Shown: positions 44,046-46,787 of the stretch, in pieces | How positions within the stretch are numbered: position 1 is the stretch's first letter | Layout of the letters: each line of letters opens with the position of its first letter | IMG/VR virus record: IMGVR_UViG_3300043100_000006 | Location: 38,180 to 102,179 of that record | Strand: one strand, 5' to 3' | DNA length: 64,000 bases | Source of the DNA: a virus | The notes under the pieces: model-generated | What the model was told of the DNA's origin: nothing | Databases searched by the model: none | What the model saw: the letters and a program-made list of their open reading frames with translations, nothing else | Program-made: the position numbers and the translations under genes

Positions 44046-44654
44046 ATGTCGCACGGTCCCATCCTGCTTGATGTCGATTCCCATCAATACACGAGAGACG
44101 GCATCCCCTACCGCAGCGTGACCCAAGTGATCGCAGACGCGGGGTGGTGCGACTTCTCGTTTGTGGAAGAGGAGTTGCGCGTGCACAGTATGAAGCGCGG
44201 AAAGAGCGTGCACTGGATGACGTGCCTTGAGGACCAGGGAGGTTTGGATTATCGGCGGGTGCCAGCGGCCTTGCGAGGATACAGACGGGCATGGAACGCA
44301 TGGAAACGGGCAAGCGGATTCATGGCCGAATTGATCGAGTGGCGATTTATTTCGGCATACGGCTATGGCGGAACGCTTGACAGGTACGGGATGCTGCCAG
44401 CGACGGAGATGTGTCCGGTCGCGACTCATGCCGTCATCGATCTGAAGACCGGCGTTGTCCCTGACTGGGCCAGATTCCAACTCGCTGCCTATGCCGTAGG
44501 ATGGCAACCAAAACTTGCCCTGGCGCGCCGCATCCGCAGGATCGGAGTATCGGTCCTCGCCAACGGAAAATATTCGACACGAGAGTTTCCGATCGCCTCG
44601 TTTGATTCCGATTTCTCGCTGTTTGCGGAAGCGGCGCGACAGGGCAACGAGTAG
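44046..44654 (+). CDS. PD-(D/E)XK exonuclease (RecB/Cas4-like fold)
   Basis: H.Y...SVTQ, RG..VH, YGGTLDR, IDLKTG, QLAAY. Confidence 0.85.
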   Translation: MSHGPILLDVDSHQYTRDGIPYRSVTQVIADAGWCDFSFVEEELRVHSMKRGKSVHWMTCLEDQGGLDYRRVPAALRGYRRAWNAWKRASGFMAELIEWRFISAYGYGGTLDRYGMLPATEMCPVATHAVIDLKTGVVPDWARFQLAAYAVGWQPKLALARRIRRIGVSVLANGKYSTREFPIASFDSDFSLFAEAARQGNE

Positions 44655-44743
44655 GGGAAGTTTGGCAAGTGCAGGTGTGGTTAACGCAGCAGGCGGAAGG
44701 CACAGTCTTGACAAGTTCTGGCAAGATGATGCAGTATACTGGC

Positions 44744-45031
44744 ATGGAACGGTCAGAGATTTCGCGGCACGAAGTCCAGATTTACCAAGTTCTTAAGAAC
44801 AATCCTACCCAATGGTTCACCAACAAGACTCTGTCCGATGCTAGCAAGGTCACAGGGCGTACCGTTAGGCTGCATACCAACCGCTTTGTTAAGCTCGGCA
44901 TAGTTGATTTAGCCGAAGTCTTCCCGGCCCATCGCTATAGATTCGCAGAGAAAGCATCACGAAGAAATGCTGCCTACGTGCAACGATTGGAAAACGCGGT
45001 CGAAGTATTCACGGAGGCAGTTCGATGTTGA
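44744..45031 (+). CDS. Winged-HTH protein
   Basis: IYQVLK..P.QWFT...L...V..RTVR.H. Confidence 0.55.
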   Translation: MERSEISRHEVQIYQVLKNNPTQWFTNKTLSDASKVTGRTVRLHTNRFVKLGIVDLAEVFPAHRYRFAEKASRRNAAYVQRLENAVEVFTEAVRC

Positions 45032-46069
45032 TCGGCTATTTTGACGGTTGTTGGGTTTGTATTACACTAGCGCCATGAAACTCCATTGTACTGAGCTCGC
45101 TTGGCAGGCAGGAATCATGGACGGTGAGGGATGTATAACTCTCGCCAAGCAACTTCGCAAAGGTAGGCCGTCGCCAGCCTTTCGCCCGACTGTCACCGTG
45201 ACCAATACCGACCCGGCGATATGCCAGCCATTCGTAGCAGCCTGGGGCGGGAAGTTGTACGAGCGCCCCGACAAAAGAGTAGTTAAAAAGTGGGCACTAT
45301 CCTTCACTTGGTATTGCCCTCGCTCATCGGTGTGGTCGTTTTTAAGCTACATACGACCGTACCTAGTTTCAAAGCGGAAACAGGCTGATCTTCTCATTGA
45401 TTTTGTGGCCAGATGCCGAGAATTCCCTCGCTATAAGGGGAGCACTTCAGGTAGCGCGAGGGGGGGCTCAAAACCATTAGGAAGCGCTGAGATTAAATAT
45501 CGGGAAAGGATATGGAATGAAATCAGAAAACTCAACACTAAGGGACAATTCTCGCGGAAAGGGGGAATCCCAACGGCATCTATCGAATAGCGTCTTAACG
45601 GCCTATTTCGATGGGTGCTGCTAGCGAACCGGTCAATCCGGGCGGTCATGCAGCTTGGGGCGCATGTCTCTGGCGTGGTGACGTAGAAGTCTGGCGCGAC
45701 AAGGGCTACTGCGGAAGTGGGCCGAAGGCGTCAAACAACGTGGCGGAATACTCTGGAGTCTGCGCCGTGCTGGAACGGCTTAGACATGAGACCGAGCCCT
45801 GTTTGATTCGCGGCGACTCGAAGTTGGTCATCTACCATTTGGTGCCAGACCCAAGCATCGGGCGAAAGTGGAAGGTCAACGGCGGACTCTATATGCCGTT
45901 CCATGTGAAGGCCAAGGCGCTGTACGAGCAGATGAAGGACCGCGTGAGTTTCGAGTGGATATCGCGGGATCAGAATGCGATCTGCGACGTTCTCTCGAAA
46001 GCGGTGTTGCATGAGCGAGGGGTTGTGTTCAAGATTCAGCCGGAAAGGCCGGAAAGAAAGCGAGCGTAA
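45025..46069 (+). CDS. rnhA: RNase HI-like protein, split: join(45025..45053,45625..46069), 157 aa
   Basis: Join reads MLIGYFDGCCEPVNPGG...NNVAEY...RGDS...NAICD with all four acidic catalytic residues; GGAGG SD at exon 1. Confidence 0.8.
45054..45624 (+). mobile_element. 571-bp intervening element encoding a LAGLIDADG endonuclease
   Basis: Precise removal restores the RNase H frame (boundary can shift by 1 nt). Confidence 0.75.
45075..45590 (+). CDS. Single-motif LAGLIDADG homing endonuclease
   Basis: LAWQAGIMDGEGCI, V.VTNTD, PYL..KRKQA. Confidence 0.9.
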   Translation: MKLHCTELAWQAGIMDGEGCITLAKQLRKGRPSPAFRPTVTVTNTDPAICQPFVAAWGGKLYERPDKRVVKKWALSFTWYCPRSSVWSFLSYIRPYLVSKRKQADLLIDFVARCREFPRYKGSTSGSARGGSKPLGSAEIKYRERIWNEIRKLNTKGQFSRKGGIPTASIE

Positions 46070-46073
46070 GGCT

Positions 46074-46787
46074 ATGCCCGAAGTAATCGCAGAGCAGGAG
46101 CAGGAACTAACCCAGCAGGCGCTCACGATTGTGGAGCGCGCAACCGCAGTAGTCATTAAAGATCAAGCCAGTTACGATTCAGCGTGTGCGCTGCTGCTGA
46201 ACGACATCAAACCGTTTCGCGCCAAGTGGGACGCATACTGGAAAGGTTCTGACTCAGCGCCAGGGCCAATAAAACTGGCGTATCGCGCCTACAAATCGCT
46301 ACTCGACAAGTTCAACGAGATCGACAACCCGGCGGAACTCGCGGAGAAAACCGTCAAGGCGGCAACGATAAAATGGGAGCAGGACCAGGAACGCATTCGC
46401 CAAGAACTACAACGCAAGGCGCAAGAGGACGCGGAGCGCGAGGCCGAAGAGGAGCGCGACCGTGCGGCGATTGTCGCGGAGAATGCCGGAGCCACGGAAG
46501 AGGAAGTGCAGGCAATCGCGGCAACTCCTGTGATGGCGGTCGCTGCGCCGGTTGCGCAAACGTTCCAACGAGCGGCGGGGATGAGCAAACCGCGTGACAA
46601 CTGGAAATGTATCTGCAAGGACATTAAGAGACTGTGCGCGGCAGTGGCGAAAGGAATTGTGCCGCCAACCTATGTGGAACCGAACCAGGTTGCGCTGGAC
46701 GCGCGCGCACGCGCAGATCGCCAAACCTTGAATATCCCAGGCTGTGTCCCTTTTAACGATCCTGTGGCATCGGCGAGGCGACGGTGA
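46074..46787 (+). CDS. Coiled-coil phage protein (recombination module)
   Basis: Coiled coil with C-terminal R.NW...IPG. Confidence 0.6.
   Translation: MPEVIAEQEQELTQQALTIVERATAVVIKDQASYDSACALLLNDIKPFRAKWDAYWKGSDSAPGPIKLAYRAYKSLLDKFNEIDNPAELAEKTVKAATIKWEQDQERIRQELQRKAQEDAEREAEEERDRAAIVAENAGATEEEVQAIAATPVMAVAAPVAQTFQRAAGMSKPRDNWKCICKDIKRLCAAVAKGIVPPTYVEPNQVALDARARADRQTLNIPGCVPFNDPVASARRR

What the first reader, a model, noticed from the sequence alone, without database searches (positions are those of the whole stretch)
45025..46069. RNase H split by a ribozyme-less LAGLIDADG element carrying a recoded exon-1 mimic and a switchable guide strand
Seen: exon 1 (GGAGG SD, MLIGYFDGC-TG, 45025-45053) joined to 45625 gives MLIGYFDGCCEPVNPGG and a complete 157-aa RNase HI; the downstream ORF alone lacks the first catalytic Asp. 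The 571-bp insert is 516 bp of endonuclease ORF with only about 21 and 34 nt of flank, leaving no room for a separate group I/II core, and it is not in frame so it is not an intein. Its 3' end repeats exon 1 with only third-position changes (TAT TTC GAT GGG TGC versus TAT TTT GAC GGT TGT) but then reads TGC TAG C, a stop and a frame break. Segment 45569-45590 can pair either with this mimic (hairpin 45574-45620) or with exon 1 across the 5' junction (CCCAACGGC with GTTGTTGGG, 45047-45055). The insert's first bases GGTTTG pair with exon-2 CGAACC, and TAGCGCC pairs with GGTGCTG. The endonuclease has a hybrid promoter (-35 TTGACG from exon 1, -10 TACACT from the insert) and an ATGA-coupled leader peptide. 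Inference: a minimal intron, translational bypass or recombinational excision element of an undescribed type.
Basis: partly seen in the sequence, partly recalled or inferred. Interest (0 to 1): 0.85.

Follow-up and report, generated by a model that had tools for sequence, protein, structure and literature searches.

The report
Homing-endonuclease cassette breaking phage RNase H
A selfish DNA-cutting-enzyme gene has landed in the first codons of a phage RNase H gene, bringing a spare copy of the gene's start plus a conserved four-base stop-containing insert that probably protects the cassette from its own enzyme and that ribosomes would have to skip for the RNase H to be made.

Summary
The native RNase H start (45025-45053) is cut off from the gene body (45626-46069) by 571 nt. 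That insert holds a 171-aa I-CreI-type LAGLIDADG endonuclease gene, a synonymously diverged second copy of the RNase H start, and then TAGC.

The intron reading does not hold. No group I/II core was found, and the proposed guide pairings are at chance level.

In five other metagenomic loci, relatives of this endonuclease sit directly upstream of an RNase H gene. That gene has its own ribosome-binding site and start, and carries a stop-plus-one-base insert (TAGC, TAGT, TGAC) at the same codon boundary. Where the upstream DNA can be read (L002, L086; L085 ambiguous), no stranded exon 1 is present. All 59 endonuclease-free RNase H loci in IMG/VR are intact.

I therefore read the element as a mobile endonuclease cassette. 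It resembles fungal mitochondrial mORFs and, most closely, T4 mobA/gene 60. It carries a replacement 5' end and a target-site insert that protects it from its own enzyme.

Several features suggest ribosomes shift or hop over the insert (about 50%):
- the insert sequence is conserved;
- the downstream frames are intact;
- the N-terminal mini-ORFs are preserved.

The alternative is that the gene is simply dead. In this window the replacement start is itself damaged. This scan has noted similar cassettes in other genes before.

The parts
45014..45018 (+). GGAGG ribosome-binding site of the original RNase H gene, now serving the leader ORF
   Evidence: Sequence. It lies 6 nt before the ATG at 45025, which overlaps the stop of the upstream ORF (44669-45031).
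45025..45053 (+).
   Evidence: Identical to the N-terminus MLIGYFDG of the intact homologue P0001. It is one arm of the direct repeat.
45025..45078 (+). 17-codon leader ORF (native rnh start plus 8 cassette codons). Its TGA overlaps the endonuclease ATG (ATGA), giving probable translational coupling.
   Evidence: The same layout is seen in L082, where MTYEGWFDGCCGKITP ends with a stop overlapping the endonuclease ATG.
45054..45074 (+). Left linker of the cassette
   Evidence: Aligns with the linker of L082 (GGT..ACA..CCATGAAAC).
45075..45590 (+). Single-motif LAGLIDADG homing endonuclease gene (171 aa; motif LAWQAGIMDGEG)
   Evidence: Matches phrog_5046 at E = 3e-20. A profile of 17 homologues hits I-MsoI, I-CvuI and I-CreI in the PDB (E from 9e-16 to 1e-6). 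D16, G17, E18 and G19 are invariant. It is the only copy in the genome.
45573..45591 (+). Damaged start region of the cassette-borne rnh copy. ACG stands where L082 has ATG. The region is read in the endonuclease frame and ends in a first TAG C.
   Evidence: Alignment by eye with L082 and L002; inference.
45592..45621 (+). Cassette-borne replacement rnh 5' end (VLTAYFDGCC, frame 1), the 'mimic'
   Evidence: The repeat with exon 1 differs only at third codon positions. (M/V)LTAYFDGCC is a common N-terminus of intact homologues such as P0007 and P0016.
45622..45625 (+). TAGC: a 4-nt insert (in-frame stop plus one base) at the CC|EP codon boundary. It is the probable centre of the endonuclease target and a candidate recoding site.
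   Evidence: The same position carries TAGC in L002 and L084/85, TAGT in L083 and TGAC(+GGC) in L086. It is absent from 59 endonuclease-free rnh loci. Identity at the insert is 0.70, against 0.30 at flanking four-fold sites.
45626..46069 (+). Body of rnh (EPVNPGG... to the stop), open, with the remaining catalytic residues
   Evidence: Matches Pfam RNase_H and RVT_3 below Pfam's own cut-offs, and phrog_531. It is 87-88% identical to P0001. It is the only rnh in the genome.
45517..45624 (+). 35-codon frame-1 ORF with AAGGA 6 nt upstream; the only canonical start that could feed the replacement 5' end
   Evidence: It is not conserved in relatives, because the ATG arises from the endonuclease codons AAT GAA. 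It is a weak candidate.

Best explanation
This is a free-standing, I-CreI-type LAGLIDADG homing-endonuclease cassette that has homed into the catalytic-Asp motif of a phage RNase H gene.

The cassette consists of four parts:
- a short linker;
- the endonuclease gene, translated by coupling to the stranded native rnh start;
- its own, foreign copy of the rnh 5' end;
- a 4-nt insert (TAGC) exactly at the CC|EP codon boundary, where the native copy is interrupted.

The insert splits the probable cleavage site, so a genome carrying the cassette is not cut again. It also puts a stop and a +1 frame change between the first catalytic Asp and the rest of the enzyme.

Active RNase H can then be made only if some ribosomes pass the site. 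They could do so by a +1 shift at the UAG (adding a Ser, AGC). Alternatively, peptidyl-tRNA could make a short hop from UGC/UGU/AGU to the adjacent NGY codon, which would restore FDGCC-EP.

What is shown:
- the anatomy of the locus;
- the endonuclease family;
- the linkage of endonuclease and insert across loci;
- the absence of an intron.

What is inferred:
- target-site protection (about 75%);
- recoding in the family (about 50%).

In this window the replacement start is degraded (ACG for ATG, plus an extra TAG C). Its own RNase H is therefore probably made poorly or not at all (about 30% functional).
For: - Endonuclease identity.
- Intact homologue P0001 equals exon 1 plus the gene body.
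- No intron family between 44500 and 46500.
- Relatives of the endonuclease (44-62% identical) lie directly upstream of rnh in L002, L083, L084/85, L086 and L088, and in L082 as far as that contig reaches. In L002, L083, L084/85 and L086, rnh has its own SD and start, an FDG-containing mini-ORF, then TAGC, TAGT or TGAC and a +1 frame change. L002 and L086 have no exon 1 upstream.
- L082 and L087 share the window's layout of stranded start plus ATGA-coupled endonuclease.
- Of 60 rnh loci in IMG/VR, only the endonuclease-linked one is broken.
- All endonuclease-linked rnh bodies are open and keep the E, D, D catalytic residues. All mini-ORFs keep the Asp, with synonymous variation.
- Pairwise identity at the insert is 0.70, against 0.30 at neighbouring four-fold sites.
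- Further frame-broken N-termini appear at the same point among protein clusters. Ser precedes EP in 12 of 15 cases in total, and one such allele is seen in five assemblies.
- Precedents: T4 mobA plus the gene 60 bypass insert, which blocks MobA (PMC5009743 and bioRxiv 10.1101/2022.08.31.505936); and fungal mORFs, which carry a foreign gene end and leave the native one as a relic (PMC3630166).
Against: - No expression or protein data.
- The P-site codons UGC, UGU and AGU cannot re-pair in the +1 frame, so this is not a prfB-type slippery site. No stimulatory SD-like element or structure is conserved.
- Insert length seems to vary. It appears to be 5 nt in L082 (a low-coverage contig end) and, as deduced from proteins only, in P0034, P0051, P0093 and P0152. 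It is 7 nt in L086. Several of these lack an in-frame stop, so one simple mechanism does not fit all cases.
- P0285 is broken again further downstream, so some copies do decay.
- The endonuclease and rnh trees are not congruent for L083. The cassette therefore moves between lineages, and intact bodies could simply reflect recent invasions.
- In the window the replacement copy has no conserved start codon.
- No tRNA is encoded by the phage, and TAG is an ordinary stop codon in it.
Confidence: 0.55

Rival explanations
1. The cassette is the same, but there is no recoding. The 4-nt insert is only a self-protecting scar, and rnh is knocked out wherever the cassette lands. Intact downstream frames reflect recent invasions of a gene the phage can do without.
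For: - The shift site does not fit known +1 rules, and apparent insert lengths vary.
- The window's replacement copy has lost its ATG and carries a second frame break.
- P0285 shows further decay.
- The L002 endonuclease is itself truncated.
- The L083 endonuclease and rnh have different nearest relatives, which implies horizontal movement.
Against: - Across cassettes that are only 44-62% identical, the insert sequence and the internal 11-16-codon mini-ORF stay conserved. The mini-ORF keeps its SD, start and catalytic Asp, while neighbouring four-fold sites are saturated.
- 13 of the 14 broken copies in which the downstream frame can be read keep a full-length body with the catalytic residues; the contig of the fifteenth, L082, ends right after the insert.
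- The phage has no second rnh.
Confidence: 0.35
2. Split RNase H. The mini-ORF ending at TAG releases a 10-16-aa peptide carrying the catalytic Asp. The body is then made by re-initiation at the ATG formed by GAT-G, 11 nt upstream of the stop. The two pieces reassemble as in RNase S.
For: - All six DNA-level copies use GAT rather than GAC for the Asp. This creates an ATG in the downstream frame in the 4-nt class.
- A stop codon at the site is conserved in 5 of 6 loci.
Against: - In L084 a TGA closes that frame between the ATG and the body.
- No precedent is known to me for an RNase H complemented by a 12-residue strand.
- The ATG follows automatically from the Asp-Gly codons.
Confidence: 0.05
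3. One reading: the whole 571-nt insert is removed or bypassed, joining 45053 to 45625. The proposed routes are a ribozyme-less intron, a long translational bypass or precise excision.
For: - The join would give a perfect 157-aa RNase H equal in length and start to P0001.
- The insert ends in G.
Against: - No intron model matches, and only 21 and 34 nt lie outside the ORF.
- The guide pairings are at chance level and are not conserved.
- Relatives have the same broken start without any exon 1.
- There are no matching take-off and landing codons and no stop after the take-off codon in exon 1.
- Repeat-mediated deletion would retain TAGC.
Confidence: 0.03
4. TAGC is an assembly or sequencing error in an otherwise in-frame replacement N-terminus.
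For: None beyond the general error rate of metagenome assemblies.
Against: The same kind of insert at the same codon boundary appears in five independent assemblies, and in the N-termini of predicted proteins in further ones.
Confidence: 0.01

Closest known systems
Phage T4-type mobA / gene 60 cassette (Bonocora et al. 2011, as described in PMC5009743 and bioRxiv 10.1101/2022.08.31.505936)
   Same: - A free-standing homing endonuclease travels together with a non-coding insert in the adjacent target gene.
- The insert blocks the endonuclease.
- A stop codon directly follows the last codon read before the insert.
- Ribosomes must get across the insert to make the host protein.
   Different: - The endonuclease is LAGLIDADG rather than HNH, and the target is RNase H rather than topoisomerase.
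- The insert is 4 nt (perhaps 4-8) rather than 50 nt.
- Landing would be on a near-cognate overlapping codon, or decoding would be a plain +1 shift.
- No nascent-peptide signal or take-off hairpin has been shown.
- The cassette also duplicates the gene's 5' end.
- Bypass is untested here.
Mobile endonuclease ORFs (mORFs) of fungal mitochondria: Allomyces macrogynus atp6; Glomus atp6, atp9, cox2 and nad3 (PMC3630166)
   Same: - An endonuclease ORF with no intron or intein is inserted in a gene.
- It carries a foreign copy of the gene's terminal segment, diverged mostly at synonymous sites.
- The native segment is left as a relic beside it.
   Different: - The arrangement is a mirror image: the 5' end is replaced, not the 3' end.
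- The host is a phage, not a mitochondrion.
- The hybrid gene is not in frame, because it carries the stop-plus-one insert.
I-CreI / I-MsoI / I-CvuI homodimeric LAGLIDADG endonucleases
   Same: - One LAGLIDADG motif in a protein of about 170 aa.
- Profile homology over residues 3-113.
   Different: - The solved enzymes are encoded in group I introns of rRNA genes, whereas this one is free-standing.
- No Pfam LAGLIDADG model reaches E = 0.1.
- It has a distinct C-terminal part (EIxYRE...LNxKGxFSRKGG) whose last codons supply the SD of the downstream rnh.
prfB (RF2) programmed +1 frameshift
   Same: An in-frame stop in a weak context (UAG C, UGA C) where the downstream frame is +1.
   Different: - There is no slippery P-site codon; UGC, UGU and AGU cannot re-pair at +1.
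- There is no conserved SD-like stimulator.
- There is no autoregulatory logic.

Membership tests
LAGLIDADG homing endonuclease (single-motif, I-CreI type) | LAGLIDADG helix motif ending in a conserved acidic residue and Gly | tested here: met
   The motif is LAWQAGIMDGEG. D16, G17, E18 and G19 are invariant in 17 homologues.
LAGLIDADG homing endonuclease (single-motif, I-CreI type) | Sequence homology to solved family members | tested here: met
   The profile hits I-MsoI (9e-16 for the tandem construct), I-CvuI (3e-8) and I-CreI (about 1e-6).
LAGLIDADG homing endonuclease (single-motif, I-CreI type) | Match to the curated Pfam LAGLIDADG models | tested here: not met
   No Pfam family reaches E <= 0.1. 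PHROG 5046 matches but is labelled 'HNH endonuclease'.
LAGLIDADG homing endonuclease (single-motif, I-CreI type) | Site-specific cleavage leaving 4-nt 3' overhangs in the empty allele | not testable with these tools
   Needs the purified enzyme and the uninterrupted rnh allele.
Group I intron | Conserved catalytic core (P3-P9) detectable by covariance model | tested here: not met
   Rfam 15 in E-value mode up to E = 10 over 44500-46500 gave only a chance lncRNA hit.
Group I intron | An upstream exon is present wherever the element occurs | tested here: not met
   L002 and L086 have the endonuclease and the broken rnh start but no upstream exon 1.
Group II intron | 5' GUGYG, 3' AY, and domains V/VI | tested here: not met
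   The insert begins GGTTTG, and there is no Rfam group II hit.
Intein | In-frame insertion with Hint splicing blocks | tested here: not met
   The insert is 571 nt, which is not a multiple of 3. Three different frames are used. There is no Hint domain.
mORF-type endonuclease cassette (gene-end replacement) | Endonuclease ORF plus a foreign duplicate of the gene's terminal segment, with the native segment stranded | tested here: met
   The repeat 45036-53 / 45603-20 differs only at third codon positions. The native copy matches P0001, and the cassette copy matches the N-termini of other homologues.
mORF-type endonuclease cassette (gene-end replacement) | The hybrid gene is in frame | tested here: not met
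   TAG C and a +1 shift lie between the replacement end and the gene body.
mobA/gene 60-type endonuclease plus bypass cassette | A non-coding insert in the target gene, found only in endonuclease-linked alleles | tested here: met
   Five endonuclease-linked loci carry it. 59 endonuclease-free IMG/VR loci do not.
mobA/gene 60-type endonuclease plus bypass cassette | Matched take-off and landing codons, with a stop codon 3' of the take-off | tested here: inconclusive
   A stop is present in 5 of 6 DNA-level loci. The would-be landing codon is NGY, matching the take-off codon at 2 of 3 positions. It is cognate only in L084 (AGU to AGC).
mobA/gene 60-type endonuclease plus bypass cassette | The insert protects against the endonuclease, and ribosomes bypass it | not testable with these tools
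   Needs cleavage assays and reporter or mass-spectrometry data.
prfB-type +1 programmed frameshift | A P-site codon able to re-pair in the +1 frame | tested here: not met
   UGC to GCU, UGU to GUU and AGU to GUU give no re-pairing.
prfB-type +1 programmed frameshift | An in-frame stop in a weak context, and an SD-like element just upstream | tested here: inconclusive
   UAG C or UGA C is present in 4 of 5 loci. A GGGUG element is present only in the window, L002 and L082.

The most novel reading that the evidence does not exclude
The TAGY insert, together with its longer variants that keep an AGY codon next to GAR, is a programmed recoding site. It would work as a short stop-hop or a +1 shift. 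It travels with a LAGLIDADG homing endonuclease as a self-protecting 'saviour indel'. That would make it a second natural family of endonuclease-plus-recoding cassettes after T4 mobA/gene 60. In this window two successive TAG C steps (45588-91 and 45622-25) would even link the endonuclease frame, the replacement N-terminus and the RNase H body into one product.
Probability: 0.4. Interest if true: 0.8.

Novelty: new variant of a known kind. Interest (0 to 1): 0.6.

Why it matters
Homing endonucleases that sit in genes without an intron or intein must avoid two things: cutting their own genome, and killing a useful host gene. The only well-studied case in which a non-coding insert solves the first problem and ribosomal bypass solves the second is T4 gene 60, long treated as unique.

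Here the insert is only four bases, with a conserved stop, in the catalytic motif of a small enzyme that is easy to assay. It recurs in several diverged lineages. If it is decoded, this would be a compact and tractable system for studying how selfish elements recruit recoding. It would also be a warning that such 'pseudogenes' in phage annotations may be live genes. If it is not decoded, it documents a gene drive that spreads while destroying its target.

Tried and rejected
Searches that found nothing useful:
- Group I/II intron search (Rfam, E up to 10): nothing.
- blastn against phage GenBank records: no match.
- tRNA search of the window and of the whole 102-kb genome, looking for a suppressor or quadruplet-reading tRNA: none. 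TAG is a normal stop codon.
- IMG/VR pattern scans for the 4-nt class: only the L002 contig.
- IMG/VR pattern scan for the 5-nt class: 11 chance hits, none in rnh.
- Endonuclease scan of genome contigs: only distant relatives (<= 40% identity, one short segment 50%), none next to rnh.
- Search for genes syntenic with the window's neighbours among all loci: none.
- N-terminal region search in the protein collection: only 2 candidates.

The DNA of the closest endonuclease relatives (P0122-P0132) and of the protein-only broken rnh cases could therefore not be read.

Ideas considered and rejected:
- The 15-nt repeat 45572-86 / 45597-611 as a third nested rnh remnant. It is probably chance: there are ten such repeat families in 900 nt, and the region aligns better with the start region of L082.
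- The IE/FD hairpin as a recoding signal. It is also present in intact alleles.
- No bulge-helix-bulge scan was made.
Full report
**What is in the window.** The window is part of a complete 102,179-bp virus record with direct terminal repeats.

- At 45014-18 a GGAGG precedes an ATG at 45025.
- The ORF that starts there reads MLIGYFDGC and then eight unrelated codons. It stops at TGA 45076-78, overlapping the ATG at 45075 of a 171-codon ORF that ends at TAG 45588-90.
- Downstream, frame 1 reads VLTAYFDGCC (45592-45621).
- Then comes TAG C (45622-25).
- From 45626, frame 2 reads EPVNPGG... to the stop at 46067-69.
- This frame-2 stretch matches Pfam RNase_H only from profile position 16, just below the curated cut-off, and matches phrog_531.

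The closest intact homologue, P0001, is 157 aa and 87-88% identical. It begins MLIGYFDGVCEPKNPGG. The 18-nt direct repeat (45036-53 / 45603-20) is 14 of 18 identical, and all differences are at third codon positions.

**What the insert encodes.** The 171-aa protein has no Pfam hit. It does match phrog_5046. A profile of 17 homologues finds the single-motif LAGLIDADG enzymes I-MsoI, I-CvuI and I-CreI among solved structures. The DGEG of the motif is invariant. It is the only copy in the genome, and the interrupted rnh is the only rnh.

**Why it is not an intron.**
- An Rfam E-value scan of 44500-46500 finds no group I or II intron.
- Only 21 and 34 nt lie outside the ORF.
- The insert is out of frame and has no Hint domain.
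- The pairings proposed as a switchable guide are no better than chance. 177 of 500 shuffles give an equally long helix, and L082 has no counterpart.
- The promoter-like match is one hit where one is expected by chance.
- The short hairpin between the I-E and F-D codons also forms in intact alleles, because ATCGAA and TTCGAT are reverse complements.
- Recombination between the two repeats would still leave TAGC in the gene.

**The decisive comparison.** I searched metagenome and viral contigs with the endonuclease alignment. I then searched the resulting loci with RNase H. Relatives of the endonuclease (44-62% identical) lie directly upstream of an rnh gene in L002, L083, L084/L085, L086 and L088, and L082 (whose contig ends just past the start of its downstream copy) has the same layout as far as it can be read.

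Type I loci (L002, L083, L084/85, L086):
- The last endonuclease codons (..KGG) form the SD of rnh.
- The rnh gene has its own start and an 11-16-codon mini-ORF ending in FDGCC, FDGAC or IDGLS.
- Then comes TAGC (L002, L084/85), TAGT (L083) or TGAC plus GGC (L086).
- The rest of RNase H continues in the +1 frame.
- L002 and L086 have no rnh fragment upstream of the endonuclease. In L083 the upstream DNA is missing, and in L084/85 it is ambiguous. So there is nothing to splice from.

Type II loci (the window, L082, L087):
- A stranded rnh start precedes the endonuclease.
- In L082 the linker and the ATGA overlap align with those of the window.
- L087 even has two nested FDG remnants upstream.

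L088 carries the endonuclease in front of an in-frame rnh whose motif is substituted rather than interrupted.

In contrast, an rnh-based scan of IMG/VR returned 60 loci. 59 are intact and have no endonuclease within 1.5 kb. The only broken one is the L002 contig. Two pattern scans for the insert in context again returned only that contig.

**Reading of the architecture.**
- The stranded start matches the native lineage (P0001).
- The second copy matches N-termini of other homologues, (M/V)LTAYFDGCC.
- The gene body is native-like from its first codons (GACLWR is shared with P0001).

This is the pattern of the mobile endonuclease ORFs of fungal mitochondria. Those bring a foreign copy of a gene end and leave the native end as a relic (PMC3630166). 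Here it is mirrored to the 5' end.

The stranded start then serves as a leader that couples translation to the endonuclease. It also serves as the left homology arm for further homing.

The native copy is interrupted at the same codon boundary at which the cassette copy carries its insert. I infer that this boundary is the centre of the cleavage site, and that the insert keeps carriers from being cut. This is what the 50-nt insert of T4 gene 60 does for MobA (PMC5009743; bioRxiv 10.1101/2022.08.31.505936).

**Is the broken gene still used?**

For recoding:
- In all five DNA-level loci the rnh body is open to its normal end and keeps the catalytic E, D, D.
- The mini-ORF keeps the first catalytic Asp, with synonymous variation around it.
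- The four insert positions are 0.70 identical pairwise, while four-fold sites of flanking codons are at 0.30. The sample is small.
- Among protein clusters there are further rnh products whose N-terminus is the out-of-frame reading of FDGCC followed by SEP: P0034, P0051, P0093, P0152, P0162, P0173 and P0227. In P0060 the residue before EP is Arg, not Ser.
- One of these alleles occurs in five assemblies.
- In 12 of 15 broken cases the codon before GAR is Ser. It is AGC or AGT wherever DNA is available.
- The site can be written as take-off [U/A]GY, then one or more bases that usually complete a stop, then NGY, then GAR. In L084 take-off (AGU) and landing (AGC) are cognate.
- A short hop would restore FDGCC-EP. 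A +1 shift would add one Ser; that product is P0139.

Against recoding:
- The P-site codons cannot re-pair at +1.
- No stimulator is conserved.
- Apparent insert lengths of 5, 7 and 8 nt exist, some without a stop. Several of these are deduced from proteins only, and one comes from a low-coverage contig end.
- P0285 is broken again downstream.
- The L002 endonuclease is truncated.
- The endonuclease and rnh have different nearest relatives in L083. Intact bodies could therefore be recent acquisitions.
- The phage encodes no tRNA and uses TAG as a stop.

I put recoding in the family at about one half.

**The window's own copy.**
- Compared with L082, the replacement copy has ACG (45573-75) where L082 has ATG.
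- The endonuclease stop seen in L082 is lost.
- The endonuclease frame runs on to a first TAG C (45588-91), after which frame 1 carries VLTAYFDGCC to the second TAG C.
- If each TAG C counted as one step, the N-terminal extension would have the same length as in L082. This is a curiosity I cannot evaluate.
- The only canonical start for frame 1 is an unconserved ATG at 45517.

I think this phage makes little or no RNase H (about 30% functional).

**Comparison, novelty and limits.** The element works like a hybrid of the fungal mORF design and the T4 mobA/gene 60 design, with an I-CreI-type enzyme. It is not a group I or II intron or an intein, and it does not meet the re-pairing rule of prfB-type sites.

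Notes of this scan report similar endonuclease cassettes with frame breaks in gmd, gp5 and a head gene of other genomes. I did not test those. They show that the kind recurs, but not that it is decoded.

I therefore have no RNA or read evidence, and no DNA for the nearest relatives.

**Verdict.** The intron, guide and excision reading is rejected. The locus is a new variant of a known kind of mobile element, with a testable and possibly general recoding site.

Noticed in passing
window 45573-45591: ACG stands where the L082 relative has the ATG of its downstream rnh copy. The endonuclease frame runs through it to a TAG C. The window therefore has two TAG C steps 34 nt apart (frame 0 to 1 to 2). 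A third TAGCG lies in the left linker at 45068-72.
   Followed up: partly
L087:2381-2470: Two nested RNase H start remnants (..YFDGACEK stop and ..FFDGVI stop) lie upstream of the endonuclease gene. This suggests repeated invasions that each left a stub.
   Followed up: no
L002:2475-3607: The endonuclease lacks its C-terminal ~30 residues (144 aa). The frame-shifted rnh ORF runs about 80 codons past the usual end, so it is either a fusion or has lost its stop.
   Followed up: no
protein P0136 (no DNA available): This endonuclease homologue begins with an RNase H-like MADTGYFDGATEP fused in frame to the LAGLIDADG domain. Here the stranded rnh start is used directly as the endonuclease N-terminus.
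   Followed up: no
window 45610-12; L002, L082, L083, L084, L086 at the FDG codons: All six endonuclease-linked copies use GAT for the catalytic Asp. All five readable ones use AAT for the Asn of NPGG. Intact alleles mix GAT/GAC and AAT/AAC. In the 4-nt class, GAT-G creates an ATG in the downstream frame.
   Followed up: partly
protein P0285: This rnh appears to have a 1-nt insert at the same motif and is also frame-broken after ..IIRG. It is a truly decaying copy.
   Followed up: no
window 44046-44654 and 46074-46787: rnh lies between two exonuclease-like genes (phrog_298/466 and phrog_10477) and after a small HTH-like ORF (44669-45031). This is a replication and recombination module. None of these neighbours has a match in any fetched locus.
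   Followed up: partly
L084:1009-2232: A 408-codon open frame follows the small frame-broken rnh. I did not identify it.
   Followed up: no
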